Below are positions 413-30,069 of a DNA stretch of 35,998 bases, piece by piece. The notes under the pieces are model-generated. The model saw only the letters and a list, made by a program, of their open reading frames with translations. It did not search any database and was not told the DNA's origin. The position numbers and the translations under genes are program-made. Numbering within the stretch: position 1 is the stretch's first letter; each line of letters starts with the position of its first letter. The DNA is from a virus. The DNA lies in UHGV virus genome UHGV-0106827, one strand, 5' to 3'.

Positions 413-421
413 ATTAATTCC

Positions 422-3609: not shown

Positions 3610-4049
3610 TTGGCTGGGGTGTATGCGTTCTTGCGTTAGCCTTAGCCGATCGCTATTTGCTAAAACGCAAGGACATCACGCATTTAGAACTTGGTGATGT
3701 GGAAATTAAACAGGGCTTCATCCGGGTGCCGTTCAAATACCGGTCTAAATTCCCGTTTTTGCGCGGCGCAACGGTCAGATATTGGATCCGCGATGTTCAG
3801 AAGCCAACGACAGTGATTGAAGGCGAACAACGTTGTCTGACGTCGGCTGAACAGGGCGAAAACAGTGAATGGTTGTACATACCCACTGAATATATGGGTA
3901 AAGGAGAGCGACTGTGGCATTTCAACGTCATGGTTACGCATGGCGACTCGTTCATTAACCCGTTGTATCGGATTTTCCCTGTTACTCAGAAAATCCGCAG
4001 AAGTTACGTAATAAATCTCGCACAGGATGTGTCAGATGACGAAAAATAA
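3606..4049 (+). CDS. lydB: LydB antiholin
   Basis: 147 aa with N-terminal TM segment, overlapping the lydA stop; matches P1 LydB in size and position. Confidence 0.75.
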   Translation: MIGWGVCVLALALADRYLLKRKDITHLELGDVEIKQGFIRVPFKYRSKFPFLRGATVRYWIRDVQKPTTVIEGEQRCLTSAEQGENSEWLYIPTEYMGKGERLWHFNVMVTHGDSFINPLYRIFPVTQKIRRSYVINLAQDVSDDEK

Positions 4050-4638: not shown

Positions 4639-4639
4639 C

Positions 4640-6559: not shown

Positions 6560-6921
6560 CACTATCAGCTATTGAGTTAATGGATCTCAGCGATAAGTTG
6601 GATGCTCTGATGTCCAAAGCGGCGACCGCGAGTGGCATGGAGTTGCTGGATATCAGCGATGAAATTGACCAGATCATGCAACAGATGGGGTACGGCGCGT
6701 CCGGCGGTGGTAGTGGCGAGGAAAAACAACCTTCGGAACATGATGGTGTGCCAAAACTGGTTGCTGATTTCCTGGCTGATAAATTCGTCGATCAGAGCAC
6801 CGATGCATTTATCGGTACCTTGCAGGATTTGAGTCAATATGTTGGCACATACATCGACCTGGACCAGGTTAAACAGCACACGGCGGCATGGATAGCCGCC
6901 AACATTAAAGAGGCAGCATAA
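6556..6921 (+). CDS. ddrA: DdrA (dar operon)
   Basis: 121 aa, overlaps the darA stop; position in the operon. Confidence 0.6.
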   Translation: MTLSAIELMDLSDKLDALMSKAATASGMELLDISDEIDQIMQQMGYGASGGGSGEEKQPSEHDGVPKLVADFLADKFVDQSTDAFIGTLQDLSQYVGTYIDLDQVKQHTAAWIAANIKEAA

Positions 6922-6933
6922 GGCGTAACAGGG

Positions 6934-10247: not shown

Positions 10248-10250
10248 ACC

Positions 10251-12132: not shown

Positions 12133-12810
12133 TCACTCCACTACAAACCAGTCACATGCCAGTAAGTCGCCTACAGAAGGAACCCACGGAACAACTACAC
12201 CTTGTGCATTTTTTAAGGCGAAATAAGCACCATACGGAACGAGGTCACCGGGGAAATATCCCTTAATGGCTTCCATTCGTGCCGGGTACTGCCCTTCAGG
12301 AACCAGCCAGCAGAATTGGTTTTCGCCGTTCCACCCGCGTCGAGCAACTTTCTTGCCATCCTTCAGCCACATCAGCGCGTCAGAAAAGTCGGCTGCTTCA
12401 AGGTCGATTTCTTCTTGTAGAGTAGCGATACCGCCAGCAGAAATAGTTACGTCCCTGGCTGTAATGAATGTCACCCCGTTGTGACCTTCAATGCTGAGTA
12501 ATGCCCCATTTTCGAAGAAGTCGTTAGTCCGACTAAAGCCTTCTTCAAATGTTTTTTCTGGTGAATAGGACAGAGATCCGTCCTCATAAGCGACCAGATA
12601 TCCGCCAATTTCTGGTCGGTGTTTTTGCAAAAACATTTTATCAACATGGACTTTTAACCCTTCTGGCTCAACGACTTCGATGTTGCAAAGAAGGACCACA
12701 TCCATTAGGGCGATAATTTCGATATCTTTGATTTTTGAGGCACGAACTGTTTTATGGCTTTTGTATTTTGGAAGTGCCGTCAAAAGCTCTTTCGTTGTCA
12801 TATTATTCAT
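12133..12810 (-). CDS. Hypothetical protein with a Trp-rich C-terminal module
   Basis: Preferred start ATG 12808-12810 (GAGGAAAG 6 nt upstream) gives 225 aa; the track ORF extends to 12930. C-terminal KDGKKVARRGWNGENQFCWLVP...VVVPWVPSVGDLLACDWFVVE resembles small phage domains of unknown function. Confidence 0.55.
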   Translation of the reverse strand: MNNMTTKELLTALPKYKSHKTVRASKIKDIEIIALMDVVLLCNIEVVEPEGLKVHVDKMFLQKHRPEIGGYLVAYEDGSLSYSPEKTFEEGFSRTNDFFENGALLSIEGHNGVTFITARDVTISAGGIATLQEEIDLEAADFSDALMWLKDGKKVARRGWNGENQFCWLVPEGQYPARMEAIKGYFPGDLVPYGAYFALKNAQGVVVPWVPSVGDLLACDWFVVE

Positions 12811-12824
12811 AGTCTTTCCTCTGC

Positions 12825-13007
12825 TTAAAAACTGATGTATTGCGCCTTCAGGTGGGTCAGGAATGTTTTCCCACCAGCGAAAGCAATATCTCGGGGTGTT
12901 CTGTTCGTTAAAAACGCGTTCCATTGCCAACTTTGGCGTTTTTTAGCGAGTTCGTGCTTTTGTTGGCGTTTGGACCACCGCTTTTCTTTCAGTCGTTTTT
13001 TACTCAT
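12825..13007 (-). CDS. Possible small highly basic protein between ssb and the downstream operon
   Basis: 60 aa, MSKKRLKEKRWSKRQQKHELAKKRQ...; fits exactly between the ssb stop (13013) and the RBS of the 12810 gene; no strong SD. Confidence 0.3.
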   Translation of the reverse strand: MSKKRLKEKRWSKRQQKHELAKKRQSWQWNAFLTNRTPRDIAFAGGKTFLTHLKAQYISF

Positions 13008-17315: not shown

Positions 17316-20300
17316 ATGAACAAGCTATCTATGGGGGTGTTTCGCTGTTCAAGTGTCAGCGAAATATTGAAATACATTAGGGCAATAACATCTCACCGAG
17401 CGCCGATTAGATACGGCGTGGAAAAGGTGGAAGGCAAAAGCTATGACCGACTACGCCGGGAGGCGAATCAGAAGGCGATAGATTTGCTTAATTCGCTGGT
17501 GGACGGCGCGACACTGACAGATGAACAGCGCCAGATCCTGGCTGGGTACACCGGTGAAGGCGGCATTGGCGGGTCCGTCTCCGAATATTACACACCAAAG
17601 CCGATCGCTGAAGGTGTCTGGGAGATCATGAAGCTCTACGGCGCGGACGTAGGTAACACTCTGGAACCATCGGCGGGAACCGGCGTTTTTAATGAGACAA
17701 AACCGGTTGGTACGGTGATGACCGCGACTGAGATCAGCAGTGTTTCCGGTCGTATAAACCAGTTGTTACACCCGGAAGACAGCGTACAGATTTCCCCGTT
17801 CGAACAGCTGGCTATAAGCACGCCTAACGATTCATTCGACCATGTTGTGGGTAACGTTCCGTTCGGCGGTCGTGATAACACACGCAACATCGATAAGCCT
17901 TACGCAGAAGAAACGGACATGGGTTCTTACTTCATGCTCCGCATGCTGGACAAGATAAAGCCAGGCGGATTCATGTGCGTGATTGTGCCGCCGTCCATTG
18001 TTTCAGGTTCAAACATGAAGCGGTTACGCCTGCGCCTATCACGGAAAGCTGAATTTCTTGGTGCCCACCGCTTGCCTACCGGTACTTTTGACGCAAACGG
18101 GACCAGTACAGTCGTTGATGTGGTGCTGATGCGCAAACATCCGGCAGAGATGGCTGAGAAAATCCCCCTGGTGGATGAAAGCACTCTTGAATCGGCAAAT
18201 GTGCTTTGGCCAACGTTTATTTCTGGCAAGTGGTTTGAAAAGGATGGCCGCCGGTTTGTTCATGGCACCCAGGAAAAGGGCTTCCAGGGGCGTATTGAGG
18301 TTCGTGCCGACGGTCAGATTGATAACCAGGCTCTTAAAGCGAAGCTGATTCATCGTTTCGAAAGCCGTATCGACTGGTCTTTGCTCGATATGGCTGAACC
18401 GTCACTGACCGCAGACGTTGTTGGTGAAGGGGAAATGCGCCTGATTAATGGCGTATGGCAAAAATATGCTGGTGGTCGCTGGATTGAAGCTGATGCCGGG
18501 AAGGAACTTAAAATTGATGCTGCCAGTTATGGCGCGGATAGCTGGGAGGCTCTTCAGCGTAACCTGACTACAACAGAAGGCCGTCTCGGTATGACATTTA
18601 CCCAGATGGCAAATGTCCGCGATAAGTACACCACATCAATCAGCGACGATATGGTGCAGCTGGTGGACTGGATTAACAGCCAGCCTGAAAAATACCGTGA
18701 ACGCTTGTATCGTGGGGCGATGATTGGCCGGATGTTAATTGAATATCAGGATATGAAGGCCGCCGGGCATAGTGCTGAACAAATCGAACAGCAGCGCCTT
18801 TCTCTGGTATCCCGTTTGCAGGCAGAGATTGACCGTTTTGGTAACCCTGGTCGCGGTCCGATAGCTAAATTATCGGGAAGCGGTGCGCGCGCCTGGTTTG
18901 CTTTCCGTGGTGCAATTAAGCTGGATGGCACTATTTCTGACGAGCTGACAGGAAAGCTGGTTACGCATGATTCCAGCGCCAGTTATGACTCCACCAGCTA
19001 TCAGGACACCCTGCGTTATCTCTATAGCGATCTTACCCGCGATCCAATCCAGCTCGATGATTTCCGCCTTGCGTTTACCGGCGAATTGCCAGCCAGTGAT
19101 GAAGAGTTGCTTAATTTATTGGCCAGCACTCCTGGTATTGCGGTTTCACCGTATGGCGGGATTGTTCCGTTCGCCCGCGCCACCAGCGGCGACATTAACG
19201 AGATAGTGGCTCCAAAACAGGAATTCCTCGCCACGCTCCCCGACGGTCCAGTAAAGAACAACGTCCTTAATCAGCTGGCAGCGATCGAAGAGAAGCGCAT
19301 CAAGACGCCAGCAGAGAATATCCGGTTTAAGCTCAATAGCCGTTGGTTCGACCGTTCCGTCATTCTGGAGTTTTTGCAGGAAAACGGCTATCCGGATCTG
19401 CGCTATGTGCAGTCAGTGCAGCTGGAAGGCGACGAAATGGTTTCTGACACCTATCACGGTGGTGATGGCCTGTTCGTCGGGCACCGATACGGTGTCGTCC
19501 AGCGCAAGGATAAAGAAACAGGCGAGATCCGCTACGAGTGGGACCGTAAATCAGGTGAAAACGCGACCGGGTTCCCGGCACAGCTGGAAAAGTATCTCAA
19601 TGGTGCGCGTATCGGTGGCAAAGATAGCGCGACGGCGAACGGCTACCGCGAGCAGATGGCACTGCTTGAGGACCAGTTCAATAAGTGGATCAAGACGCAC
19701 GATCGCTACGATGAGCTGGTTGCCAAATACAACGATGTGTTCAATAGCAATATCCCGTTTGAACACTCTGGCGATCCGCTTGGGTTGAAGGGATTAAGCG
19801 GTAAGCGCCAGCCATTTGATTACCAGAATAGCGAGGTGCGCCGACTGTCCGAAGATGGGCGCGGCATCCTGGGCTTCGGCACCGGGCTGGGTAAAACCAC
19901 GACCGCGCTGGCGCTTGAGGCGTTCAACTATGAGAACGGTCGCTCCACCCGTACTGCTTATGTAGTGCCTAAATCAGTGCTGGAAAATTGGTATTACGAA
20001 GCTAAAGAATTCCTGAGTGAAGAGGCATTCAGTAACTACTTGTTCGTCGGTCTTGATGTGCTGATGGATGGCGATCAGATTCGCCAGGTGCCGGTGCTCG
20101 ATGAGAACGGTAAACCTGTTCTTGGTACTGATGGCACTCCAGTTATGCGCGATGCTCTTAAGCTGGCAGATGAAGCCACTATCACGGCGCGGATGAATGC
20201 GATCCCGCACTCAAATTACCGTGCAGTCGTGTTTACCAAAGAACAATACGCCCGCATTCCGCTACGTGATGACACCGTAGATGAGCATGCACAAGACATG

Positions 20301-23300
20301 CTTTATGACTTCGTTGCTGCCGGACGTGTGGCCAGCGCAATGGATTCCGATTCCCATCGCAAAGAGGCGGCGCGTCGCCGGGTATTGTCGGAGTATTCAG
20401 ATACCGGTACCGAAAAAGCAGAGAAGTATCCGTACTTTGAGGATATGGGCTTCGACAGCGTGATCGCCGACGAAGGCCACAACTACCGCAATAGCTATAA
20501 AAATGGTCGCGAAGCGTCACAGCTGGCCTATCTGCCCACCAGCGCGGTGGCGCAATCGGCGCGAGATATGGCAATCAAAAACGCGTACCTGATGAAAAAG
20601 AATGGCGGGCGCGGACCGGTTCTCCTGACTGCAACGCCAGTCGTTAACACCCCGATCGATGCATACAACATGCTTTCTCATGTTCTGCCGAAAGAATACT
20701 GGCAGAAGATGGGGATCTACGGTCCTGATGACTTCGTTAAATTCTTCGGCAAGACCAGGCTGGAAACGGTACAGAAAATCAGCGGTGAAGTTGAAGAAAA
20801 AATGGCGCTGGTGGGCTTTGAAAACCTTGATGCGCTGCGCGGCATATTCCATCGCTGGACAACGCTTAAAACGGCGGAAGACGTTAAGGATACCGTGGAG
20901 ATCCCGGAACTGGACGAACACCAGCAGGATGCACCACTTACGGAAGAACAACTGGCGGCGTATGAAGAATTGCGTCAGCAGGCGGAAGCGGCAGCCAAAG
21001 CCAACAATGGCGTAACGACCTCGGTCAATGAAGACGGCGTGATTGAGCACGAGAAAGCCCGTCCGATCTTCTCAATAATCAGGGATATGGACCGCGTATG
21101 TACTGACATGGACCTGTACTATCGCAGGATCACCTATCGTTTCCTGCCGGAGTACGCCGATGCGGTGCAGCAGCTGGCGGACAGTTTGCCTAAACAAGCC
21201 ACCAGCGAAGACGACGACAGTGATGATTCGATCACGCAGCAATCGCAATACTCCCTGATAGATAAGGGCGAGTTTATTCAGTTGCAGGTACCGGAAGCAT
21301 TTGAGCAGGAAGTGAATAAGCGCCTGGCCAAGTTTGGCATTGACGAACAGACCGTAACTCACCCCGTTACACCCAAATACGCGAAGCTGATCGCCACGCT
21401 GAAGGAGTTTTTCCCGGAAGGTAAGCAAATCATCTTCACCGATGAAAAAACGCAGCACCAGAAGCTCAAGCGCATTATCTGCAATGCTCTTAACCTTGAA
21501 CCTTCAAAGGTGGGTATCCTGAATGCTCAGACGGTTGCCGAGGCAGGTAAAACCGGTAAGAAACTGAAAGCGGTTAAACCACCGAAAGAGCTACCGGATG
21601 AACCAACAGATGCACAGATAGCGAAATACAACGAGCAAATGGCTCTGTATGACGCCTATATCGCGCAGCAAAATGAAATGTCGCTGGGTGGGCTGGAAAA
21701 GATTGCTGCCGACTTCCAGGAGGGCCGGACTCCGATCATCATCTGCAACAAAAAGGCAGAGGTGGGTATCAACCTGCATCGAGGAACGACTGACATCCAT
21801 CATCTGACGTTGCCATGGACACCAGCCAGTATCGCACAGCGTAACGGTCGCGGTGCCCGAGTTGGTTCCAACCGTGCAAGCGTTCGCGTTCACTACTACT
21901 GCGGCAAGGGTTCTTTCGATGAATACCGACTGAAGACGCTGAAGCGTAAAGCAGGCTGGATCTCCGATATCCTCCGTTCAGATAAGTCAGAAATGGAGAA
22001 CGCCGACGCCAACGATATGATCGAAATGCAGATGTATACCGCTAAGGATGATGGCGAACGTCTGGCAATGATGCAGGTTCAAATGGATAAGGCGAAAGCC
22101 GCGCAACGCGCTCGCCAGAAAGAACAGGCTACTATCGACCTTCAGAACTACATCAAGGCGCAGCACGCAGCTGGCGAGGATGTGGAGGTACTTACCGCTG
22201 AATTAGAGCGAAGCAAAGCGGAACTTGAAAAGACCACCGCCGAGGTAGCTAAATTCAAACAGGCGGTAATGGCCAAAGCAGCTGATAACGCAGACTGGAA
22301 GGCCCGCTGGGGGAGCGTCCATCACACAGACCGTATGTTGTTAGCACAGTATCGCGCGTCGTTGAAAAACGCCATTCAGCGCAAGGCTAATATCTCTCAA
22401 GCCATCTCCCGCTATGAGAAATTATTGAACCGTACTCAGAAGGCCGCGACGGATATCAAACGCCTGCGCCCGCTGGTGGAGGATGCAATAAATAAAGGCA
22501 TTCTGGATGTTGATCCTGACCTGGTTAACCATGCGAGTGAGTTCCTTGTTATCGGCGATCGCTCATGGCGTGTAGGCCAATACTACGATTGTGCCGGTGA
22601 TATCGTTCGCATTAAGTCGCTGGACTTCGACAGCCAGCGCGCAGACGTGGAGATCATCTTTACCTTCAAAGGCACCAAATCGGGTAACTGGGATGTGAAG
22701 ACGCTGGATAAACAGGTGGATGTAACTCCCGATGAAGATGCTGTTATGCAGAAAATCAGTGGTGGCGTCTCCATCGCCGGGATTAACGACATCATTTCCT
22801 GTGACGATTTCTACCGTTTCCAGCAGCGCGGCATGATCAAAATCACTGACTCGTACGGCGTTCAGACTACAGAGTCAGGCTATAGCATTGATTTTGTTGG
22901 TACCTATACGGACCCACTGAAGCATGCGGTTTACCCGGATCGCCGTGACGGCGCGCTGAAGTCGTCAATTGCAAAATGGGTGCTTGGTATGATGTCGGAA
23001 GGGAATAACCGCCAGATCCGTTCGGCAGAAACATTCCTGGTTGAATTGTTTGGCTCCAATTATGGCGATGTAATCGCGTCATACGGAGATACGCTATCCC
23101 CTGAAGCAATTCAGGAGAAAATAGCGGATGCGATCGCCAGAATGCCGGAAAAAACAAGCCAGGGGGCTACTCGTAACGGGGATTCTGAACTTGAAGTCAC
23201 CAATGCCATTTTCGGTACCAATGAGTTCCGGGCGTCAGATTATGAGATCACCACAGCACAGTTTGGCACCATTGGCATTTACAGCAATAAAGCCGAGATC

Positions 23301-24083
23301 AAGCAGGCAATGGACGCAGCAAGCGCGCGCATCGCAGCAGAACGGGAAGCCAATCTGAATCATGCAGTCGCCGCGCTGACTCAATCGTGGGTAACAGCAA
23401 TCAGGGAGGCCGCCACCACAGGGAAAATCACACCTGCAATAGCGGATGTCGTAAACGACGGCTCTAAATTTATGGATGCCTATCAAATGGATGCGGTGAA
23501 GTTGCCATCAGCCTATGGTCAACTCAGCTATCGCATGACCTACAACCTGGTATCAATGTTTTCCGACCTTGCCATCCTTGGGCTGGTGGATCTTAACGAG
23601 GTTACGCCGGAATTGCTCAGCATGCGCAAGAATCATGTGGAGATATTGCAGAGAATTAACACGGTTCTTGCCGGGCGCACCGATGAAGAGAAACAGGCCG
23701 ACGCTGATCGGATAAACCTGGCCCTTGGCAACATCACGGAGGAAGAGATTGCCGCCAGAAACGAGAAACAAGAAGAGTTATCATCAATACAGGGTGATGC
23801 CACCAGCATAGCTCAGTCTCTTGGTCTGAATTATCGCGTATCCACCGCCGACCTGAAGATGATGTACGCACCAAAATTCGCCGCTGGCGAGGTATTTGGG
23901 CTTCAGGAAGCCTCAGGCATGAAAGGCGTTCTTTTCCGTGCGAAAGACGCAATCAAGGCGAAATTCGGCGCTCGCTGGCTGCCAGCGAAGGCGAAGAACA
24001 GCGATTTCCCGGGTAACTGGTGGATTATCGAGACAAAACACAACGTGGCGGACGTTCTGGCCGTCATCCAACAATACGCATAA
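17316..24083 (+). CDS. darB: DarB antirestriction protein (methyltransferase plus DExH helicase giant protein)
   Basis: 2255 aa; ATG with AAGGA 6 nt upstream; SAM-binding-like LEPSAGTGVF and VGNVPFGG motif N-terminally; helicase Walker A GFGTGLGKTTT and DExH box VIADEGHNY; size matches P1 DarB. Confidence 0.85.
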   Translation: MNKLSMGVFRCSSVSEILKYIRAITSHRAPIRYGVEKVEGKSYDRLRREANQKAIDLLNSLVDGATLTDEQRQILAGYTGEGGIGGSVSEYYTPKPIAEGVWEIMKLYGADVGNTLEPSAGTGVFNETKPVGTVMTATEISSVSGRINQLLHPEDSVQISPFEQLAISTPNDSFDHVVGNVPFGGRDNTRNIDKPYAEETDMGSYFMLRMLDKIKPGGFMCVIVPPSIVSGSNMKRLRLRLSRKAEFLGAHRLPTGTFDANGTSTVVDVVLMRKHPAEMAEKIPLVDESTLESANVLWPTFISGKWFEKDGRRFVHGTQEKGFQGRIEVRADGQIDNQALKAKLIHRFESRIDWSLLDMAEPSLTADVVGEGEMRLINGVWQKYAGGRWIEADAGKELKIDAASYGADSWEALQRNLTTTEGRLGMTFTQMANVRDKYTTSISDDMVQLVDWINSQPEKYRERLYRGAMIGRMLIEYQDMKAAGHSAEQIEQQRLSLVSRLQAEIDRFGNPGRGPIAKLSGSGARAWFAFRGAIKLDGTISDELTGKLVTHDSSASYDSTSYQDTLRYLYSDLTRDPIQLDDFRLAFTGELPASDEELLNLLASTPGIAVSPYGGIVPFARATSGDINEIVAPKQEFLATLPDGPVKNNVLNQLAAIEEKRIKTPAENIRFKLNSRWFDRSVILEFLQENGYPDLRYVQSVQLEGDEMVSDTYHGGDGLFVGHRYGVVQRKDKETGEIRYEWDRKSGENATGFPAQLEKYLNGARIGGKDSATANGYREQMALLEDQFNKWIKTHDRYDELVAKYNDVFNSNIPFEHSGDPLGLKGLSGKRQPFDYQNSEVRRLSEDGRGILGFGTGLGKTTTALALEAFNYENGRSTRTAYVVPKSVLENWYYEAKEFLSEEAFSNYLFVGLDVLMDGDQIRQVPVLDENGKPVLGTDGTPVMRDALKLADEATITARMNAIPHSNYRAVVFTKEQYARIPLRDDTVDEHAQDMLYDFVAAGRVASAMDSDSHRKEAARRRVLSEYSDTGTEKAEKYPYFEDMGFDSVIADEGHNYRNSYKNGREASQLAYLPTSAVAQSARDMAIKNAYLMKKNGGRGPVLLTATPVVNTPIDAYNMLSHVLPKEYWQKMGIYGPDDFVKFFGKTRLETVQKISGEVEEKMALVGFENLDALRGIFHRWTTLKTAEDVKDTVEIPELDEHQQDAPLTEEQLAAYEELRQQAEAAAKANNGVTTSVNEDGVIEHEKARPIFSIIRDMDRVCTDMDLYYRRITYRFLPEYADAVQQLADSLPKQATSEDDDSDDSITQQSQYSLIDKGEFIQLQVPEAFEQEVNKRLAKFGIDEQTVTHPVTPKYAKLIATLKEFFPEGKQIIFTDEKTQHQKLKRIICNALNLEPSKVGILNAQTVAEAGKTGKKLKAVKPPKELPDEPTDAQIAKYNEQMALYDAYIAQQNEMSLGGLEKIAADFQEGRTPIIICNKKAEVGINLHRGTTDIHHLTLPWTPASIAQRNGRGARVGSNRASVRVHYYCGKGSFDEYRLKTLKRKAGWISDILRSDKSEMENADANDMIEMQMYTAKDDGERLAMMQVQMDKAKAAQRARQKEQATIDLQNYIKAQHAAGEDVEVLTAELERSKAELEKTTAEVAKFKQAVMAKAADNADWKARWGSVHHTDRMLLAQYRASLKNAIQRKANISQAISRYEKLLNRTQKAATDIKRLRPLVEDAINKGILDVDPDLVNHASEFLVIGDRSWRVGQYYDCAGDIVRIKSLDFDSQRADVEIIFTFKGTKSGNWDVKTLDKQVDVTPDEDAVMQKISGGVSIAGINDIISCDDFYRFQQRGMIKITDSYGVQTTESGYSIDFVGTYTDPLKHAVYPDRRDGALKSSIAKWVLGMMSEGNNRQIRSAETFLVELFGSNYGDVIASYGDTLSPEAIQEKIADAIARMPEKTSQGATRNGDSELEVTNAIFGTNEFRASDYEITTAQFGTIGIYSNKAEIKQAMDAASARIAAEREANLNHAVAALTQSWVTAIREAATTGKITPAIADVVNDGSKFMDAYQMDAVKLPSAYGQLSYRMTYNLVSMFSDLAILGLVDLNEVTPELLSMRKNHVEILQRINTVLAGRTDEEKQADADRINLALGNITEEEIAARNEKQEELSSIQGDATSIAQSLGLNYRVSTADLKMMYAPKFAAGEVFGLQEASGMKGVLFRAKDAIKAKFGARWLPAKAKNSDFPGNWWIIETKHNVADVLAVIQQYA

Positions 24084-24116
24084 CAGGAGCGCCCGGTTCG
24101 CCGGGCGTCGCATAAT

Positions 24117-24557
24117 ATGGCCACACTATCTGATACAATAAAACCGAATAAAACATATCTTGAGGCGGTACTCCGTACAGCGTTGTTAGGAAAGACAGAA
24201 GACGAATACGTTGATTTCTTCCTGTCAGGGCTACGCGGGCGATTACTGAAAAATCCCCGCCTGTACCGCAGCTATGGTCCATACTGGCCGGAAATTAAAA
24301 AATTATTACTGGAGCGCGGTTATGGTAATTTCGGTCGTCTCGTTGACCGTGACGTTCGCAAAATTTACCGTTATGACCGCCCGGCGCTAACACTCATAGC
24401 CGCGACGCTCTACAGCCAGGAGCGTTTTGATAATGGTCAGATATACTCAGCCTGGCATTTACTGCCAGTGCCTGAAGAAGTTGACGACCAGGACTATGAG
24501 TTTGAGTCTTACGATTTGGAAGTTGAAGCCTTGGCACAGGCTGGAGAGAAAACTTGA
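24117..24557 (+). CDS. Small protein downstream of darB (ulx-like position)
   Basis: 146 aa, normal GC content, immediately follows darB. Confidence 0.45.
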   Translation: MATLSDTIKPNKTYLEAVLRTALLGKTEDEYVDFFLSGLRGRLLKNPRLYRSYGPYWPEIKKLLLERGYGNFGRLVDRDVRKIYRYDRPALTLIAATLYSQERFDNGQIYSAWHLLPVPEEVDDQDYEFESYDLEVEALAQAGEKT

Positions 24558-24802
24558 AAAAGCGATACTACACAGTAAAGCATGGGACGCTACGAGCATT
24601 ACAAGAGTTTGCTGACAAGCATAACGTTGAGGTGCGCAGGGAAGGGGGAAGTAAAGCTCTGCGCATGTACCGTCCGGACGGGAAATGGCGTACGGTCGTC
24701 GATTTCAAAACTAACAGTGTTCCCCAGGGCGTCCGCGATCGGGCATTCGAAGAATGGGAGCAGATCATCATAGATAACGCATTGCTCCTGAATGCTGATT
24801 AA
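24554..24802 (+). CDS. Small basic protein (lxc-like position)
   Basis: 82 aa overlapping the upstream stop; followed by a hairpin. Confidence 0.45.
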   Translation: MKKRYYTVKHGTLRALQEFADKHNVEVRREGGSKALRMYRPDGKWRTVVDFKTNSVPQGVRDRAFEEWEQIIIDNALLLNAD

Positions 24803-24806
24803 GAAC

Positions 24807-24835
24807 TCTCCGGCCTAGGGAGATTAGGCCGGAGA
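24807..24835. terminator. Hairpin at the left border of the AT-rich island (possible bidirectional terminator or insertion junction)
   Basis: 10-bp perfect inverted repeat TCTCCGGCCT / AGGCCGGAGA with a 9-nt loop, between two convergent genes; no strong U-tract. Confidence 0.45.
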
Positions 24836-24843
24836 TAAATATA

Positions 24844-26148
24844 CTATATAAACTTAGATACAATATCGTGAATCTGTTGTAGCGGGATATCTTCCATCTC
24901 ATTCTTAATAAGAGAGCGGTTAGATGCTGTCAGTGAAGGCCATTTTGTTTTCCAGGCTAGATATGCTCGCCATGAGTAGCCTGTTTCGTAAGGTTTATTC
25001 ATATAAGTCATTGAGTGTTCAACCGCATGTATGTATTTTTTCTCAAAATTGGTTCCTTTTACTTCAAATAAACTACCGAAATAAATAAGCCATTTTGCCA
25101 GGTGTTCATACTGCTCCCATGCGCCAGGCTTTTTAGTAAGCTCTATTTTTTTATCTATTATATTACAAAAAACATTTAATACATTTTCATTATTCCAGCT
25201 ATATCCAGATGATGAAATGGAGGAAATGATATGATAAAAAGAATCCTCTAGCTTCAAGAACTCTATTTTATACTCTCTTCCGTTTTTTATTACCGATTTG
25301 ATTGAGTGCCTCAATTTGTCTTTTATTTTTTTTGCTTCTGGAATTTTATCGTTAAGTTTTCTAAAGAAATCAGATACCTCTGTTTTATCTATAACCCTAA
25401 CCCCATAGCAGGAAAAATAGTAATCTTTAATAGGTTGCAATAGTTCCCCTCGGGAAACAAGGAAAATATTGGAGGACATTACGTTGTCCCGTGAAAATAC
25501 CTTATATTCATTTATAATAGCCTTTAGGTTCGCGTCACTTAGAGAATAGCCAAGGATAACAATAGTGTTTTCATGTAGAACTGTGCTTAGTTTATTAGAA
25601 AAGTAAGAATTACCATTTATAAATCTGAAATAATCCTCGCTAGTAACAACCATGTCTGATGGGGAGTCTATAGAACCGTGAACATGGTAGACTTTAACCT
25701 CACAATTATATTTTGGAATTGGCAGGCCGGGGGTGATTGTACAAGTTCGATTCTCTCCAGCCAGCTTTTCTGCTAACTTGTCATAATTTGTCGTAATTAC
25801 TTTAAATGTGTTTTCTTTGAAAAAGTCTTGAATATATTCAATTGATGGATCAAGTTCGATTGAGGCTATGATTTTCTCAATCTCTTGGTAAATATTTTTC
25901 CCCGAAAGTATAAGTTTTAGTGCAATAACCTGAGCAGCTTCTTCAAGGCTAAGGTCTTTTGCTTTTCCATCAGGAAATAATTCCTCTTTGAGTGAGTCAC
26001 CATCCTTCAATAAACCGCACAGTTGCTCCAATAAAGATTGCCAACTTGGGGCTTTATCATCAGAAACAGCCTTTGAAAATCCAGTGCCTGTAAGAAAGCA
26101 CAGCCTATGTGTAGCCGCTGCATAGGCAATTTCTATATACTCGCTCAT
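24844..26148 (-). CDS. SIR2-like (ThsA-type, SIR2_2 family) NAD+-hydrolase domain protein with an uncharacterised C-terminal domain; candidate defence effector
   Basis: 434 aa. Motifs FLTGTGFS (res ~18-25), VITTNYDKL (catalytic Asn) and VYHVHGSIDSPSDMVVTSEDY (catalytic His) occur with the spacing seen in ThsA/DSR sirtuin-like domains; IVILGYSLSDANL matches the family's FVGFSFTDPNL strand. The gene is markedly AT-rich relative to its flanks. Confidence 0.8.
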   Translation of the reverse strand: MSEYIEIAYAAATHRLCFLTGTGFSKAVSDDKAPSWQSLLEQLCGLLKDGDSLKEELFPDGKAKDLSLEEAAQVIALKLILSGKNIYQEIEKIIASIELDPSIEYIQDFFKENTFKVITTNYDKLAEKLAGENRTCTITPGLPIPKYNCEVKVYHVHGSIDSPSDMVVTSEDYFRFINGNSYFSNKLSTVLHENTIVILGYSLSDANLKAIINEYKVFSRDNVMSSNIFLVSRGELLQPIKDYYFSCYGVRVIDKTEVSDFFRKLNDKIPEAKKIKDKLRHSIKSVIKNGREYKIEFLKLEDSFYHIISSISSSGYSWNNENVLNVFCNIIDKKIELTKKPGAWEQYEHLAKWLIYFGSLFEVKGTNFEKKYIHAVEHSMTYMNKPYETGYSWRAYLAWKTKWPSLTASNRSLIKNEMEDIPLQQIHDIVSKFI

Positions 26149-26204
26149 TACTTACTCCATTTACTTATAGTTCTACGGAGAAGTATACCCTAATGCATTG
26201 ACGT

Positions 26205-26993
26205 TTATAGATAATTTCCTTTTCCTGTTAATACTCCCTTAGGCACCTGTTTTTGTGCCAGCGTTTGGGTCCCGCGAATTATGTTAATCAGAGGGCTTAG
26301 TAACGATGGTTCCTGGCGTGCCTCAACTTCTCCAGCCATTGCCCTGATGTAGTCGGCGCTGGCAACGTTGTTGTATTCCGTCGCAAAGCAACATAGTAAC
26401 GTCAGAACATGCTCTGTCGTTATTTCGCTCCAGTTGATGTTGAAAAATTCATCGCCTTTTTTATCGTGTTCGGAATCGAAGATGCTTTGGTGGAGGATGT
26501 ATTTGCCGGATTCCTTGCGCGGTAACTTGATTGCTTTCTGGCGTTCCAGCTCCTTATAAATCTGCATTGCCTCAATTAGTACCGGCCTGCCGTTCATGAA
26601 GGGATCGCGCAACCTTACACGCTGGCCAACTCGACCAGTAATAAAGCTGTTTTCCTCTTCCACCAGCACGATAAAACCCTTTTCCTCTTTTTCTCGCAAT
26701 TCGCGCAGCAGCTGGAGTTCCATATCGCGGCGGCGTTCAGGGTAGCTGGTCCGCTCAGCCATTATTAGCTCATTGTTGATCCATGCAGCAGTCATTGACG
26801 CCGGTTTGCCGACGCTCATCGAAACAACGCATATTTTCTTATCCATAGCGCCCCCTACAAAAAAGAAAAGCCACCAGCGGCGGCTTAGCAATACAACTGA
26901 AGGTAGCGCCCGGTACTCAGACTGTGCCGTCCATGGAATATTTGAAAAGGGATCCATCCGTACCGGGCATGTGATGATTCTGACTGAAGTCAC
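26205..26993 (-). CDS. Mat-like protein (position of the P1 particle maturation gene; identity not verified)
   Basis: Track ORF 262 aa; a likelier start is ATG 26844-26846 (213 aa) with a G-rich SD. Normal GC; lies between ref and the island. Confidence 0.45.
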   Translation of the reverse strand: MTSVRIITCPVRMDPFSNIPWTAQSEYRALPSVVLLSRRWWLFFFVGGAMDKKICVVSMSVGKPASMTAAWINNELIMAERTSYPERRRDMELQLLRELREKEEKGFIVLVEEENSFITGRVGQRVRLRDPFMNGRPVLIEAMQIYKELERQKAIKLPRKESGKYILHQSIFDSEHDKKGDEFFNINWSEITTEHVLTLLCCFATEYNNVASADYIRAMAGEVEARQEPSLLSPLINIIRGTQTLAQKQVPKGVLTGKGNYL

Positions 26994-27035
26994 TTGTCAG
27001 TTGTCAATTATTTCAGATTAAAAATAATATATTTA

Positions 27036-27596
27036 TTAGTGCATGATGTTTGCCATCTCATAGGCGTCAGCCAGCAACTCCATCTCTGACTTGTTCAGCA
27101 AGGTGAATTCTTTCTTGCCTCCAACCACACCATCGGCATGAACAGGGACCAGCCAGGGGTATTTTTCTCTTACTTCAGCCGGTGCTGCATGCTGGTGGTG
27201 CCATCTACAAAGGGGCAATTGCTTTTTGTGACAACCCGGCGCGGTACGACCGGAGATATGGTGCAGAGATACCTCTTCAGATATTACTCCATGCATGTGG
27301 CAGGCAATGCAGGGGAGAGCGCCAAGAGCATTGGCGATGCTCCGTTCCTCCGCTGTCGATGTTCGCCCCTTCAAGCCACGAGATTTTATCTTTACCGCAC
27401 TTTTCCGCGTTTTGCTGGCTGGTGGGCGCTCTTTCTGTTTAGCGATACGGCGGTCGATAGAATCCCGCATTTTCTGATATTGCGATTCTCGCCAGGCGGG
27501 GTCAGCCAACTTTTCCCGTTGCCGAGCGATCGCTCGTTCTCTGGCTGCCTTCTGCCACTCGCGGCGCTGTTCAAGTTTTTGTTCGATTGTTTTCAT
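27036..27596 (-). CDS. ref: Ref recombination enhancement function (HNH-type endonuclease)
   Basis: 186 aa from MKTIEQKLEQRR, the size I recall for P1 Ref; very basic N-terminus and C-terminal Cys/His cluster CIACHMHG...HHISGR...CHKKQLPLCRWHH; downstream of a C1 operator. Confidence 0.8.
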   Translation of the reverse strand: MKTIEQKLEQRREWQKAARERAIARQREKLADPAWRESQYQKMRDSIDRRIAKQKERPPASKTRKSAVKIKSRGLKGRTSTAEERSIANALGALPCIACHMHGVISEEVSLHHISGRTAPGCHKKQLPLCRWHHQHAAPAEVREKYPWLVPVHADGVVGGKKEFTLLNKSEMELLADAYEMANIMH

Positions 27597-27601
27597 ATGG
27601 C

Positions 27602-27627
27602 AAAAAAAAGGCGGCCTAATGGCCGCC
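27602..27627 (-). terminator. Terminator-like hairpin plus U8 tract in the ref leader (candidate attenuator)
   Basis: On the minus strand GGCGGCC-ATTA-GGCCGCC followed by TTTTTTTT, ending 5 nt before the ref ATG and about 55 nt downstream of the predicted promoter. Confidence 0.5.
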
Positions 27628-27687
27628 AATGATGTCAAGGAGTTAAGTAATGGCAACGTCTTCGTAGTTGACAAAAACTGCGGCTTA

Positions 27688-27696
27688 ATTATAGCA
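27688..27696 (-). promoter_or_regulatory. Extended -10 promoter (TGCTATAAT) for ref, overlapping a C1 operator
   Basis: Minus strand reads ATTGCTCTAATTGATTGCTATAAT; no good -35, consistent with an extended -10 promoter. Confidence 0.5.
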
Positions 27697-27711
27697 ATCA
27701 ATTAGAGCAAT
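27695..27711 (-). promoter_or_regulatory. C1 operator (14/17 to consensus) upstream of ref
   Basis: Minus strand ATTGCTCTAATTGATTG. Confidence 0.55.
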
Positions 27712-27842
27712 GGTAGATATTTTGTTAATCGCGAATCACATTTTTTCACTTCAGTACCTGTGTGCTATACTCCTTCTTGATTGATTGGATGCGGAATACA
27801 AACCCGCTCTTTTGTGCAGCCTGGCTCCTTGCCAGGCTTTTT

Positions 27843-28154
27843 TTATTTCATCATGGAAGCTGTTAACGCTTTGGATCTTGCTGAACTGATTGAAAGGGCA
27901 TTGTTTACCTTACCCAGGAGTTCGCCAAATTCCACCATCACTCTAGTAAGCCCGCGCCGCGCTTCCTCCTCCGTTGCATTCATCACAAAATGTTCAGCAC
28001 TCCGCATGCTTTTAACGGGGAACGCAACAGATATCGAGTCGATATCAGGCATCCTATCGCTCAACTTTACGGTGACAATGACAGATGGTGACTGAATTTG
28101 AGAGCTTACAGACAGCACCACATATTTTCCGTCTATTTTGAAATCCTTCCGCAT
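27843..28154 (-). CDS. Hypothetical protein between cre and ref (cra-like position)
   Basis: 103 aa; a C1 operator and a TTGATT-15-TATTTA promoter-like sequence lie immediately upstream; the mRNA would be nearly leaderless. Confidence 0.4.
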   Translation of the reverse strand: MRKDFKIDGKYVVLSVSSQIQSPSVIVTVKLSDRMPDIDSISVAFPVKSMRSAEHFVMNATEEEARRGLTRVMVEFGELLGKVNNALSISSARSKALTASMMK

Positions 28155-28170
28155 GCGTCACCATAAATAT

Positions 28171-28187
28171 CAAATAATTAGAGCAAT
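28171..28187 (-). promoter_or_regulatory. C1 operator (14/17) between cre and the cra-like gene
   Basis: Minus strand ATTGCTCTAATTATTTG. Confidence 0.55.
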
Positions 28188-28204
28188 CAAGCGCAAATGA
28201 ACGG

Positions 28205-29236
28205 CTAATCGCCATCTTCCAGCAGGCGCACCATTGCCCCCGTTTCACTATCCAGGTTACGGATATAGTTCATGACAATATTTACGTTGGTCCAGCCACC
28301 AGCTTGCATGATCTCCGGTATTGAAACTCCGGCGCGGGCCATATCTCGCGCGGCTCCGACACGGGCACTGTGTCCAGACCAGGCCAGGTATCTCTGACCA
28401 GAGTCATCCTTAGCGCCGTAAATCAATCGATGAGTTGCTTCAAAAATCCCTTCCAGGGCGCGAGTTGATAGCTGGCTGGTGGCAGATGGCGCGGCAACAC
28501 CATTTTTTCTGACACGGCAAAACAAGTAGTTATTCGGATCATCAGCCACACCAGAGACAGAAATCCATCGCTCGACCAGTTTAGTTACCCCCAGGCTAAG
28601 TGCCTTCTCTACACCTGCGGTGCTAACCAGCGTTTTCGTTCTGCCAATATGGATTAACATTCTCCCACCGTCAGTACGTGAGATATCTTTAACCCTGATC
28701 CTGGCAATTTCGGCTATACGTAATAGGGTGTTATAAGCAATCCCCAGAAATGCCAGATTACGTATATCCTGGCAGCGATCGCTATTTTCCATGAGTGAAC
28801 GAACCTGGTCGAAATCAGTGCGTTCGAACGCCAGTGCCTGTTTTGCACGTTCACCGGCATCAACGTTTTCTTTTCGGATCCGCCGCATAACCAGTGAAAC
28901 AGCATTGCTGTCACTTGGTCGTGGCAGCCCGGACCGACGATGAAGCATGTTTAGCTGGCCCAAATGTTGCTGGATAGTTTTTACTGCCAGACCGCGCGCC
29001 TGAAGATATAGAAGATAATCGCGAACATCTTCAGGTTCTGCGGGAAACCATTTCCGGTTATTCAACTTGCACCATGCCGCCCACGACCGGCAAACGGACA
29101 GAAGCATTTTCCAGGTATGCTCAGAAAACGCTTGGCGATCCCTGAACATGTCCATCAGGTTCTTGCGAACCTCATCACTCGTTGCATCGACCGGTAATGC
29201 AGGCAAATTTTGGTGTACGGTCAGTAAATTGGACAT
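28205..29236 (-). CDS. cre: Cre tyrosine site-specific recombinase
   Basis: 343 aa, MSNLLTVHQNLPALPVDATSDEVRKNLMDMFRDRQAFSEHTWKMLLSVCRSW... ending ...MVRLLEDGD: the Cre sequence as I recall it, adjacent to loxP. Confidence 0.97.
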   Translation of the reverse strand: MSNLLTVHQNLPALPVDATSDEVRKNLMDMFRDRQAFSEHTWKMLLSVCRSWAAWCKLNNRKWFPAEPEDVRDYLLYLQARGLAVKTIQQHLGQLNMLHRRSGLPRPSDSNAVSLVMRRIRKENVDAGERAKQALAFERTDFDQVRSLMENSDRCQDIRNLAFLGIAYNTLLRIAEIARIRVKDISRTDGGRMLIHIGRTKTLVSTAGVEKALSLGVTKLVERWISVSGVADDPNNYLFCRVRKNGVAAPSATSQLSTRALEGIFEATHRLIYGAKDDSGQRYLAWSGHSARVGAARDMARAGVSIPEIMQAGGWTNVNIVMNYIRNLDSETGAMVRLLEDGD

Positions 29237-29497
29237 TTAACACTCAGATAATGGTTTTAAGTAAAGTGTACAGGATCGGCTCTGCCTTTACCTGTTTATG
29301 GTTCTCGTCATAGAAACGCCAGCGACCGCGCGTGCGTTCTATTTTCTCTTCACCGCGCGATAATGACAGTTGACAACTATCACGATCAAACCCTTTTGCC
29401 CGCCAGTAACCACGGTTTTTCTCAAGCTCAAGATGAGTGGACACTTTAGCAGTTGAATATCCCATTTTTCACCTCTGATTGATTGGTGGTGCTAAGT

Positions 29498-29556
29498 GCG
29501 CTACGCGAAATCTGTAGGACTAACACCGCCAATTTTTCACAGATTTTACGTAGCGC
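29498..29556. repeat. 18-bp inverted repeat with 23-bp spacer upstream of cre
   Basis: GCGCTACGCGAAATCTGT ... ACAGATTTTACGTAGCGC, 16/18 complementary. Confidence 0.5.
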
Positions 29557-29562
29557 AACCTT

Positions 29563-29635
29563 GATCAAATGATCAAGTGATCACTATTTGACCTGCCAAG
29601 GTATTGAACTGTATGGATTTACAGGTAAATTGATC
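29563..29635. promoter_or_regulatory. Cluster of four Dam (GATC) sites in the cre upstream region
   Basis: TTGATCAAATGATCAAGTGATCAC plus a fourth TGATCA; I recall cre promoters being modulated by Dam methylation in P1. Confidence 0.5.
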
Positions 29636-29654
29636 ATATTCAATAACCCTTAAT

Positions 29655-29688
29655 ATAACTTCGTATAATGTATGCTATACGAAGTTAT
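29655..29688 (+). other. loxP recombination site
   Basis: Exact 34-bp ATAACTTCGTATA-ATGTATGC-TATACGAAGTTAT. Confidence 0.98.
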
Positions 29689-29731
29689 TAGGTCTGAAGA
29701 GGAGTTTACGTCCAGCTGCGCATAAAAATCA

Positions 29732-29748
29732 AGAATTATTAGAGCAAT
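29732..29748 (-). promoter_or_regulatory. C1 operator (15/17), Op99 region
   Basis: Minus strand ATTGCTCTAATAATTCT. Confidence 0.6.
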
Positions 29749-29808
29749 AAATTTTGAGAGAAAAATCCCACTCCACCAGCCAAAAACTGGATTGTTTTTC
29801 ATAGTTGT

Positions 29809-29835
29809 TTGACAATTGCTCTAATAAATTATAGT
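29809..29835 (+). promoter_or_regulatory. C1-repressible promoter: -35 TTGACA, operator ATTGCTCTAATAAATTA in the spacer, -10 TATAGT
   Basis: 16/17 operator match at 29815-29831 flanked by near-consensus -35 and -10 hexamers; reads towards coi and c1. Confidence 0.6.
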
Positions 29836-30069
29836 TTTGCCGCCGTTTCGTAATACGACTTTGGATTCACTATTTAATGTGTCTTCAGCGTTGTAGAGCG
29901 GCTCAGAAGGAAATGAGCAAACAGGGAAACCTTATACAACGGCATTACAGCTATGCATTGCTCATCTTACACACAGCGCAATGTTGTTAGATTACCCCAG
30001 CATGGATCATGGGTGAAACAGTAGGTCAGAGCTTCAGGCTCTGTGTTGTCAATACAGTGAGGCATAATT

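What the first reader, a model, noticed from the sequence alone, without database searches (positions are those of the whole stretch)
24803..26204. AT-rich island at the position where P1 carries its type III restriction-modification genes
The segment between the lxc-like gene and the mat-like gene is far more AT-rich than its flanks and holds only the SIR2-like gene. From my recollection of the P1 map, res and mod lie between lxc and mat, and I see no Res or Mod homologues anywhere in the window. This points to cassette exchange at a defence hotspot. The left border is a 10-bp perfect hairpin (24807-24835) and the right border is only 56 bp from the mat-like stop.
Basis: partly seen in the sequence, partly recalled or inferred. 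Interest (0 to 1): 0.7.

Follow-up and report, generated by a model that had tools for sequence, protein, structure and literature searches.

The report
SIR2 defence-like gene in P1 slot
In this P1-like phage-plasmid the restriction-modification genes of phage P1 are replaced by an AT-rich, one-gene cassette for a compact SIR2 enzyme that probably aborts infection by rival phages; the swap site is already known as variable, but this occupant has not been tested.

Summary
Window 24803-26204 has 35.8% GC against 48.9% for the rest, and it is the lowest 1.4-kb stretch in the window. It holds one real gene and sits exactly where P1 and P7 carry mod-res.

Homology to P1 stops at the lxc stop codon (24802) and resumes at 26211, two codons inside mat. 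No Res or Mod homologue exists in the window or in a complete near-identical plasmid.

The slot is already published as P1 variable region "RD-1". Among 72 P1-like contigs I found 13 cargo types plus empty slots. They include type III R-M, CapRel, JukA and several uncharacterised genes, all AT-rich.

The cargo here is a 434-aa protein. Its N-terminal SIR2_2 domain keeps the GTGFS, TTNYD and HxHGS motifs, and its closest solved structures are DSR2, ThsA and KomC. Its C-terminal 180 residues form a HEAT-like alpha-solenoid found only fused to SIR2.

Homologues stand alone at a prophage end, in a satellite-like element and beside Gabija. I infer a single-protein, phage-triggered NAD+-depleting abortive-infection defence, a "mini-DSR". 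That function is untested, and the protein is not a member of DSR2, Thoeris or PDC-S25.

It is a new member of a known kind, of moderate interest.

The parts
24554..24802 (+). lxc (C1 modulator). This is the conserved left flank of the slot, and homology to P1 ends at its stop codon.
   Evidence: 98.5-99% nucleotide identity to P1 and RCS47 up to 24802; annotated lxc in P1, RCS47, SJ46 and P7.
24803..26210 (.). AT-rich replaceable cassette occupying P1 variable region RD-1. It corresponds to P1 3463-9749 (res-mod::IS5).
   Evidence: GC 0.358 against 0.489; breakpoints from blastn against P1 and RCS47; the same cassette in 65 of 686 PLSDB P1-like plasmids and 69 of 689 P1-positive complete E. 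coli genomes.
24807..24835 (.). Stem-loop of 11 perfect pairs with a 7-nt loop, between the convergent lxc and SIR2 genes. It is a likely terminator for the SIR2 gene (minus strand) and a stop for lxc read-through.
   Evidence: Inverted repeat I7; dG -22.2 / -20.8 kcal/mol, z -4.8 / -4.5; flagged terminator-like on the minus strand; 12 of 13 cargo types and both empty-slot variants folded have their own, different stem-loop here.
24844..26148 (-). SIR2_2-family ORF of 434 aa (stop codon at 24844-24846).
   Evidence: Pfam PF13289 E 2e-23; PHROG phrog_7567 full length, function unknown; 661 homologues, typically 431-437 aa; dN/dS 0.2-0.35 between cassette variants.
25384..26148 (-). N-terminal SIR2 (Rossmann) domain, aa 1-255. 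It has invariant T20-G-T-G-F-S25, T119-T-N121-Y-D123 and H155-x-H157-G-S159.
   Evidence: Invariant columns in 49 homologues. N121 and H157 align with ThsA positions 112 and 152. Foldseek top hits are DSR2, ThsA and KomC.
24847..25383 (-). C-terminal all-helical domain, aa 256-434: a HEAT/ARM-like alpha-solenoid and the putative sensor.
26149..26204 (-). 56-bp spacer upstream of the SIR2 gene. It holds the RBS GGAG (26156-26159, 7 nt from the ATG) and a weak -10-like TATACT (26182-26187). No terminator separates it from mat.
   Evidence: Sequence. Almost identical in the second, 57%-identical SIR2 allele. No consensus promoter was found by the scan, so the promoter is unresolved.
26205..26993 (-). 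mat (maturation control), the conserved right flank. The likely true start is 26846. The last ~60 nt co-vary with the cargo type.
   Evidence: Annotated mat in P1, RCS47, SJ46 and CP088419.1; 3'-end comparison; terminator-like site at 26868-26886 inside the long ORF.

Best explanation
The island is the current occupant of the P1 'RD-1' accessory slot between lxc and mat. Different P1-like phage-plasmids carry alternative, mostly anti-phage, AT-rich cassettes at this locus. They swap them by homologous recombination in the conserved flanks.

Here the cargo is one gene for a 434-aa two-domain protein: an N-terminal SIR2 NAD+-glycohydrolase-type domain and a C-terminal HEAT-like alpha-solenoid.

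The most likely mechanism is inferred by analogy with DSR2. In a lysogen the protein is made in an inactive state. The fast-evolving solenoid binds a protein of a superinfecting phage. This releases or assembles the SIR2 domain, which hydrolyses NAD+ and aborts the infection, protecting the clonal population and the resident P1 plasmid.

What is shown: the cassette replacement, the domain architecture, conservation of the catalytic motifs, stand-alone occurrence in defence or mobile-element contexts, and purifying selection.

What is inferred: NADase activity, the trigger, the abortive-infection outcome, and expression in the lysogen.
For: Slot and exchange
- Breakpoints at the lxc stop and the mat 3' end against P1, and an empty slot in RCS47.
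- 13 cargo types plus empty slots in 72 contigs, all with GC 0.32-0.43.
- Cargos include type III R-M (P1, P7) and CapRel. CapRel-SJ46 is experimentally anti-phage (PMC9712102) and sits in this slot in SJ46.
- Other cargos match JukA, PDC-S31 and PDC-S34.

Protein
- SIR2_2 domain, with GTGFS, TTNYD and HxHGS invariant in 49 homologues.
- N121 and H157 align with ThsA positions 112 and 152.
- The closest PDB sequences and folds are all defence NADases: DSR2, ThsA and KomC.
- The C-terminal domain is an alpha-solenoid. The DSR2 C-terminal domain is also described as an alpha-solenoid (abstract of PMC11850899).
- The C-terminal domain occurs only fused to SIR2_2.
- It diverges faster than the enzyme domain: 0.56 against 0.70 mean pairwise identity, lower in 100% of pairs. 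11 of the 16 substitutions between cassette sub-variants lie in it.

Context of homologues
- Always a lone gene with changing neighbours.
- Seen at an E. coli lambdoid prophage end next to int, in a K. oxytoca primase/integrase/capsid satellite-like element, beside Gabija-like AAA_21-TOPRIM plus UvrD genes in P. putida, and among nuclease and restriction domains in Halomonas.

Selection
- dN/dS 0.2-0.35.
Against: - No experiment on this family was found in the searchable literature.
- It is not called by any named system. PADLOC gives only SIR2-domain-level hits (PDC-S25, ThsA, LmuA). NCBIfam Dsr2 scores 30 bits against a cut-off of 1400.
- A DefenseFinder survey of P1 phage-plasmids does not mention SIR2.
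- No recognisable sigma-70 promoter lies in the 56-bp spacer, and no terminator separates the gene from mat. In P1, mat is under a C1 operator and a late promoter. Expression in the lysogen is therefore unproven.
- The solenoid has about 4 repeats, far smaller than the DSR2 sensor.
- 2 of 11 IMG/VR copies are frameshifted at A-runs.
Confidence: 0.65

Rival explanations
1. The gene is an orphan Thoeris-type ThsA effector. It would be switched on by a gcADPR-like signal made by a TIR protein (ThsB) encoded elsewhere.
For: The ThsA HMMs of PADLOC hit at E 9e-18. ThsA chains are among the best PDB matches.
Against: - The matches cover only the SIR2 domain (profile positions 107-215 of 478).
- The C-terminal domain is an alpha-solenoid, not a SLOG/STALD fold.
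- No TIR gene lies next to the gene in the window or in the five homologue neighbourhoods read.
- The same element encodes a Tad2-like anti-Thoeris domain protein (12133-12930), which would sequester such a signal.
Confidence: 0.04
2. The protein is a SIR2-fold enzyme with a non-depleting activity, such as ADP-ribosylation or deacylation of a specific host, P1 or invader target. It would give direct immunity, plasmid addiction or lysogeny control rather than NAD+ depletion and abortive infection.
For: SIR2 folds support several NAD-dependent chemistries. The gene lies downstream of mat with no intervening terminator, so it could be co-regulated with a P1 developmental gene. Some cargos in the slot are not obviously defensive (GNAT, AraC plus EAL, a lipoprotein).
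Against: - It belongs to PF13289, not the canonical sirtuin family, and has no CxxC zinc-ribbon motifs.
- All close structural relatives are NADase defence effectors.
- Its distribution in unrelated mobile elements and next to Gabija argues for an element-independent function.
Confidence: 0.2
3. The island is a decaying or neutral hitch-hiker: AT-rich foreign DNA that happens to fill a permissive gap, with no current function.
For: The empty slot is viable (RCS47 and 8 of 72 contigs). 2 of 11 copies are frameshifted.
Against: - The ORF is intact in the window and in 9 of 11 sampled copies.
- dN/dS is 0.2-0.35.
- The family is conserved at 53-59% identity across gammaproteobacterial genera and one Delftia (betaproteobacterial) member, with invariant catalytic motifs.
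- The cassette is present in about 10% of P1-like elements.
- A second, 57%-identical allele occupies the same slot.
Confidence: 0.04

Closest known systems
P1 variable region RD-1 / 'region 1 (res-mod)' (Venturini et al. 2019, PMC6906374; PMC9603915; PMC10865808)
   Same: It is the same locus: bounded by mat and lxc, low G+C, and with res-mod replaced by element-specific ORFs. My breakpoints (P1 3463-9749) match their 3,469-9,749.
   Different: Those papers describe the variability but not a SIR2 occupant (0 mentions). They also do not frame the slot as a defence-cargo hotspot with a catalogue of cargos.
DSR2 (defence-associated sirtuin 2, Bacillus subtilis)
   Same: It is a single-protein system with an N-terminal SIR2 NADase domain, followed by helical and alpha-solenoid parts that sense a phage protein. 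It gives the best Foldseek hits (E 6e-11), and the catalytic Asn and His are conserved.
   Different: DSR2 is about 1000 aa with MID and CTD domains; this protein is 434 aa with about 180 aa of solenoid. NCBIfam Dsr2 scores 30 bits against a cut-off of 1400. Identity is 14-16%. The trigger is unknown.
Thoeris ThsA
   Same: The SIR2 domain is of the same subfamily (PF13289), the catalytic residues align, and the overall length is similar (about 476 aa).
   Different: ThsA has a C-terminal SLOG domain and needs ThsB (TIR). Here the C-terminus is an alpha-solenoid and there is no TIR partner.
Defence hotspots of P2 phages and P4 satellites (Rousset et al. 2022, PMC9122126)
   Same: It follows the same logic: a fixed position between conserved genes of a temperate element holds interchangeable anti-phage cassettes, including uncharacterised SIR2-domain genes.
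   Different: The element is different (a P1 phage-plasmid), and the flanks are lxc and mat. No systematic experimental screen of this slot was found.
CapRel-SJ46 (PMC9712102)
   Same: It occupies the identical lxc-mat slot in the same orientation in phage SJ46. It is a single-protein sensor-effector abortive-infection defence.
   Different: Its effector is a tRNA-pyrophosphorylating toxSAS domain, not SIR2, and there is no sequence relation.

Membership tests
P1 RD-1 variable slot | Located between lxc and mat of a P1-like backbone | tested here: met
   Flanks are 98-99% identical to P1 and RCS47; gene order is darB-ulx-lxc-[cargo]-mat-ref-c8-cre.
P1 RD-1 variable slot | Cargo differs between otherwise collinear P1-like genomes and has low G+C | tested here: met
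   13 cargo clusters plus empty slots, GC 0.32-0.43; this island has GC 0.358.
SIR2_2 (PF13289) defence-type SIR2 domain | Pfam match above the gathering score, with the NAD-binding GxG and catalytic Asn and His conserved | tested here: met
   83.4 bits against a cut-off of 24.5; G21/G23, N121 and H157 are invariant in 49 homologues; alignment to ThsA positions 112 and 152.
DSR2 | Full-length match to the Dsr2 equivalog model (about 1000-1200 aa; SIR2 + MID + CTD) | tested here: not met
   NF041819 scores 30.5 bits against a cut-off of 1400, and the match covers only residues 117-212. The protein is 434 aa.
DSR2 | [quoted passage not shown] | not testable with these tools
   This needs biochemistry or phage genetics.
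Thoeris (ThsA/ThsB) | C-terminal SLOG/STALD signal-binding domain | tested here: not met
Thoeris (ThsA/ThsB) | Adjacent TIR-domain ThsB gene | tested here: not met
   None is present in the window slot or in the five homologue neighbourhoods read.
Canonical sirtuin deacylase (CobB/Sir2, PF02146) | PF02146 match and a Cys4 zinc-ribbon module | tested here: not met
   Only PF13289 is reported. There is no CxxC motif; the Cys residues are at 17, 44, 136, 149, 247 and 328.
PADLOC candidate PDC-S25 | Full-length match to the 517-528-aa PDC-S25 models | tested here: not met
   The best hit aligns residues 100-247 to profile positions 127-278 of 517 only.
SIR2-HerA / Lamassu (LmuA-SIR2) | Partner HerA ATPase or LmuB (SMC) gene in the same operon | tested here: not met
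   This is a single-gene cassette. No conserved partner appears in the homologue contexts.

The most novel reading that the evidence does not exclude
The 434-aa SIR2 plus mini alpha-solenoid protein is a self-contained, single-gene anti-phage sensor-effector family, a 'mini-DSR'. It is absent from current defence catalogues, yet it is the commonest cargo of the P1 lxc-mat slot and is carried by about 1.3% of complete E. coli genomes.

By extension, RD-1 would be the P1 counterpart of the P2/P4 defence hotspots. Its other uncharacterised cargos (DUF2971, PIN_12, YaaC plus NDT-like, GNAT, AraC plus EAL) would then be candidate new systems.
Probability: 0.55. Interest if true: 0.5.

Novelty: new member of a known kind. 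Interest (0 to 1): 0.38.

Why it matters
P1-like phage-plasmids are present in about 13% of complete E. coli genomes (689 of 5426) and move between Escherichia, Salmonella, Klebsiella and Shigella.

A fixed slot that shuffles anti-phage cargo determines which other phages, including therapeutic ones, can grow on lysogens. It also offers a compact place to mine for new immune genes.

A 434-aa SIR2 sensor-effector would be one of the smallest self-contained NADase defences. That would make it a tractable model for how a short helical-repeat sensor gates a SIR2 active site.

The value is incremental. The slot's variability and SIR2-based defence are both established.

Tried and rejected
- Transposon or integron origin of the island. 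No flanking direct repeats or terminal inverted repeats were found. The lxc-side hairpins differ in sequence between cargos and look like terminators rather than a shared recombination site. Rejected.
- res/mod relocated elsewhere. None in the window or in the complete sister plasmid. Rejected.
- A deposited phage genome with the same gene. There is no full-length homologue in 50,697 phage records, and BFVD gives no match at E<=0.001.
- Sequence relatives of the C-terminal domain in the PDB. None; best E is 0.3.
- Domain shuffling of the C-terminal domain onto other effectors. A profile search of 1.84 billion representatives found only SIR2 fusions and fragments.
- A promoter in the 56-bp spacer. 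The consensus scan found none, so this is unresolved.
- The afdb50 fold library was unavailable.
- Literature searches for an experimentally tested member of this family found none. These covered PDC-S25, single-gene SIR2, and P1 SIR2. The Sir2 homologue in Vassallo et al. could not be assigned to a named system from the text read, so identity with this family is not excluded by that paper alone. None of the PADLOC models matches this protein full-length.

Full report
**1. What the window is**

The ORFs around the finding are, in order:
- a 2255-aa DarB (17316-24083, +)
- Ulx (24117-24557, +)
- Lxc (24554-24802, +)
- a 434-aa ORF (24844-26148, -)
- Mat (26205-26993, -)
- Ref (27036-27701, -; Pfam RecA_dep_nuc)
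- C8 (27843-28154, -)
- Cre (28205-29236, -)

This is the P1 map read backwards. Megablast finds 95-99% identity to P1, P7, RCS47, SJ46 and other Punavirus records on both flanks, but never across the middle.

**2. The observation**

Window 24803-26204 has GC 0.358 against 0.489 for the rest. It is the lowest-GC 1.4-kb stretch of the 36 kb (next lowest 0.404; z about -4.5). The ORF's GC3 is 0.32, against 0.46-0.58 in neighbouring genes.

The inverted repeat at 24807-24817 / 24825-24835 is perfect over 11 bp with a 7-nt loop. As RNA it folds at -22 kcal/mol, z -4.8.

The ORF's ATG is 56 bp from the mat stop codon. Every factual element of the finding is correct.

**3. Breakpoints**

Against P1 (NC_005856):
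- Window 22052-24802 aligns to P1 12500-9750.
- Window 26211-29671 aligns to P1 3462-1.
- The 1.4-kb island therefore replaces P1 3463-9749, which is res, mod and the IS5 of the mod749::IS5 reference.

Against other relatives:
- RCS47 has the same two flanks separated by only 39 bp that form a small hairpin, an empty slot.
- P7 has mod-res in the slot.
- SJ46 has a RelA/SpoT-family gene there, in the same orientation as the ORF here.

P1 Res and Mod proteins find nothing in the window (best E 0.56). They find nothing at E<=0.01 in the complete 94.6-kb IncY plasmid CP088419.1, which carries the same cassette and matches the window at 97.8% over 24.7 kb.

There are no flanking direct repeats or terminal inverted repeats.

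**4. The slot across P1-like elements**

Using Lxc as a probe I fetched 80 IMG/VR loci, of which 72 contained both anchors. They fall into 13 cargo clusters plus 8 empty slots.

| Cargo | Loci |
|---|---|
| This SIR2 cassette | 11 |
| DUF2971 protein (PADLOC PDC-S31-like) | 10 |
| Type III R-M | 7 |
| PIN_12 protein | 6 |
| CapRel-type toxSAS, two variants (PDC-S33, E 8e-87) | 6 + 3 |
| 3.5-kb JukA + HTH + antirepressor-like unit | 4 |
| GNAT acetyltransferases, two variants | 4 + 3 |
| YaaC + nucleoside-deoxyribosyltransferase-like pair | 4 |
| AraC + EAL pair | 4 |
| Second SIR2 allele (435 aa, 57% identical) | 2 |
| Lipoprotein | 1 |

All cargos are AT-rich (0.32-0.43).

12 of 13 cargo types start with their own, sequence-unrelated stem-loop within 45 nt of the lxc stop. 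The exception is the co-oriented R-M operon.

The last ~60 nt of mat vary with the cargo, as expected if recombination breakpoints fall in the flanks.

Prevalence:
- 65 of 686 P1-type plasmids in PLSDB carry this cassette.
- 69 of the 689 complete E. coli genomes (out of 5426) that have the flanks carry it.

**5. Prior knowledge of the slot**

The locus is published. Venturini et al. 2019 define 'RD-1' as P1 3,469-9,749 (res-mod). It is replaced by element-specific ORFs, at a boundary of low G+C (PMC6906374).

PMC9603915 lists res-mod as 'highly variable region 1' of 54 P1-like elements and notes the low G+C.

CapRel-SJ46, which I place in this slot, is an experimentally proven anti-phage protein (PMC9712102).

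A 2025 DefenseFinder survey of P1 phage-plasmids reports type III R-M, dGTPase, PrrC and CapRel, but has no mention of SIR2. None of these papers mentions a SIR2 occupant.

**6. The protein**

Family hits:
- Pfam gives SIR2_2 (PF13289) over residues 117-253.
- PADLOC gives only domain-level hits: PDC-S25 residues 100-247, ThsA, LmuA and Dsr2.
- NCBIfam Dsr2 and Dsr1 score 30 and 21 bits against cut-offs of 1400.
- PHROGs has a full-length family of unknown function, phrog_7567.

The big protein database returns 661 homologues, mostly 431-437 aa. The 48 aligned members are 52-59% identical (up to 61% by BLASTP) and come from Vibrio, Halomonas, Xenorhabdus, Marinobacter, Pseudoalteromonas, Klebsiella, Pantoea, Pseudomonas and E. 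coli chromosomes.

In 49 aligned members the motifs T20-G-T-G-F-S25, T119-T-N121-Y-D123 and H155-x-H157-G-S159 are invariant. N121 and H157 align with positions 112 and 152 of B. cereus ThsA. From my own knowledge of the ThsA literature these are its catalytic Asn and His. The PDB also holds catalytic-His mutants of the related enzymes: DSR2 H171A and KomC H146N.

There is no CxxC zinc-ribbon motif.

AlphaFold2 with this alignment gives pLDDT 84.9 and pTM 0.81. Foldseek against the PDB ranks DSR2, ThsA and KomC chains first (E 6e-11 to 1e-8), all of them NAD+-degrading defence effectors.

The same profile finds only 95 clusters among 1.84 billion representatives. All full-length members place the domain at about 255-435 behind a SIR2_2 domain. 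One eukaryotic repeat protein is a weak, spurious hit.

The C-terminal domain is less conserved than the enzyme domain in every sequence pair (0.56 against 0.70). It holds 11 of the 16 substitutions between cassette sub-variants. dN/dS between sub-variants is 0.2-0.35.

**7. Contexts of homologues**

The gene is always alone, with different neighbours:
- At the int-proximal end of a lambdoid prophage near narP/ccm in E. coli.
- Between a P4-alpha-type primase/integrase and a P2-type capsid gene in K. oxytoca.
- Directly downstream of Gabija-like AAA_21/TOPRIM and UvrD genes in P. putida.
- Among HNH, HSDR_N and DUF87 genes in Halomonas.
- In a non-descript chromosomal spot in Pseudoalteromonas.

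**8. Interpretation**

The simplest reading has two parts.

(i) A known recombination-prone accessory slot of P1 is here loaded with a single-gene cassette.

(ii) The gene is a stand-alone SIR2 sensor-effector that works like a miniature DSR2. The variable alpha-solenoid would recognise a phage component, and the SIR2 domain would deplete NAD+ and abort the infection.

Part (i) is demonstrated. Part (ii) rests on architecture, motif conservation, structural neighbours, genomic context and evolutionary rates. It is untested.

Weak points are expression and self-compatibility. No consensus promoter was found in the 56-bp spacer, and the gene could be read through from mat, which in P1 is C1-repressed and late-activated. 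There is also no information on whether P1's own lytic growth triggers the protein.

The near-identity of the spacer between the two 57%-identical alleles suggests it is functionally constrained or a recombination boundary.

**9. Membership**

The protein fails the defining tests of several named families:
- DSR2: length, and the equivalog model.
- Thoeris ThsA: no SLOG domain and no ThsB partner.
- Canonical sirtuins: no PF02146 match and no zinc ribbon.
- PDC-S25: no full-length match.
- SIR2-HerA and Lamassu: no partner gene.

It works like a DSR-type protein but is not a member of that family. It is best filed as an unnamed SIR2_2 + alpha-solenoid family (phrog_7567).

**10. Verdict**

The cassette-exchange locus is already in the literature. 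The SIR2 occupant is a plausible but unvalidated new member of the known class of SIR2 NADase defences. Interest is moderate.

Noticed in passing
window 12133-12930 (-): A 265-aa ORF has a C-terminal Tad2-like (Thoeris anti-defence 2) domain, PF11195, E 2e-22. The same element therefore carries an anti-Thoeris candidate and a ThsA-like SIR2 gene.
   Followed up: partly
window 10248-11337: A 1090-bp segment with ORF 10251-11345 (-), 364 aa and no Pfam or PADLOC hit, is absent from the otherwise collinear plasmid CP088419.1. It is another variable spot, in the area of P1 RD-2 (isaA-IS1-isaB).
   Followed up: partly
L054 and L085 (IMG/VR), lxc-mat slot: A second SIR2 allele (435 aa, 57% aa identity) occupies the same slot. 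It shares the ~56-bp upstream spacer and the mat 3' end almost exactly, but it has a different lxc-side hairpin.
   Followed up: partly
L057, L019, L031 (empty slots) versus L017, L018: Empty slots retain only a hairpin. The 29-bp filler of L057 equals the first 25 nt of the CapRel-variant cargo c11, and the filler of L019 resembles the c7 left edge. This suggests cargo gain and loss occur on the mat side of the lxc terminator.
   Followed up: partly
L040 and L092 (IMG/VR copies of the SIR2 cassette); the equivalent window runs are the T-runs near 25331-25338 and 25147-25153 on the + strand: Two of 11 sampled copies are frameshifted by 1 nt in A8 and A7 homopolymers of the ORF (ORF nt ~815 and ~1003). 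This is either sequencing error or slippage-prone inactivation.
   Followed up: no
L026, L014, L025, L018/L016, L027, L036 (lxc-mat slot in other P1-like contigs): Uncharacterised alternative cargos occupy the slot: DUF2971 (PDC-S31-like), PIN_12, YaaC plus nucleoside-deoxyribosyltransferase-like, GNAT, AraC plus EAL, and a lipoprotein. They are candidates for new defence or accessory functions.
   Followed up: partly
window 26868-26886 (-): A terminator-like hairpin followed by a T-run lies inside the 262-aa 'mat' ORF. It probably ends ref transcription, so the true mat start is likely 26846 (213 aa), as annotated in RCS47 and CP088419.1.
   Followed up: no
window 201-950, 2651-3200, 12551-12850, 29376-30025: These are further low-GC (<0.40) segments in the window. 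They may mark other P1 variable regions.
   Followed up: no
L003-L006 (E. coli chromosomes): A 56%-identical homologue sits as the last gene of a lambdoid prophage next to its integrase, near narP/ccmH. In one strain an AIDA-type autotransporter is inserted downstream.
   Followed up: no
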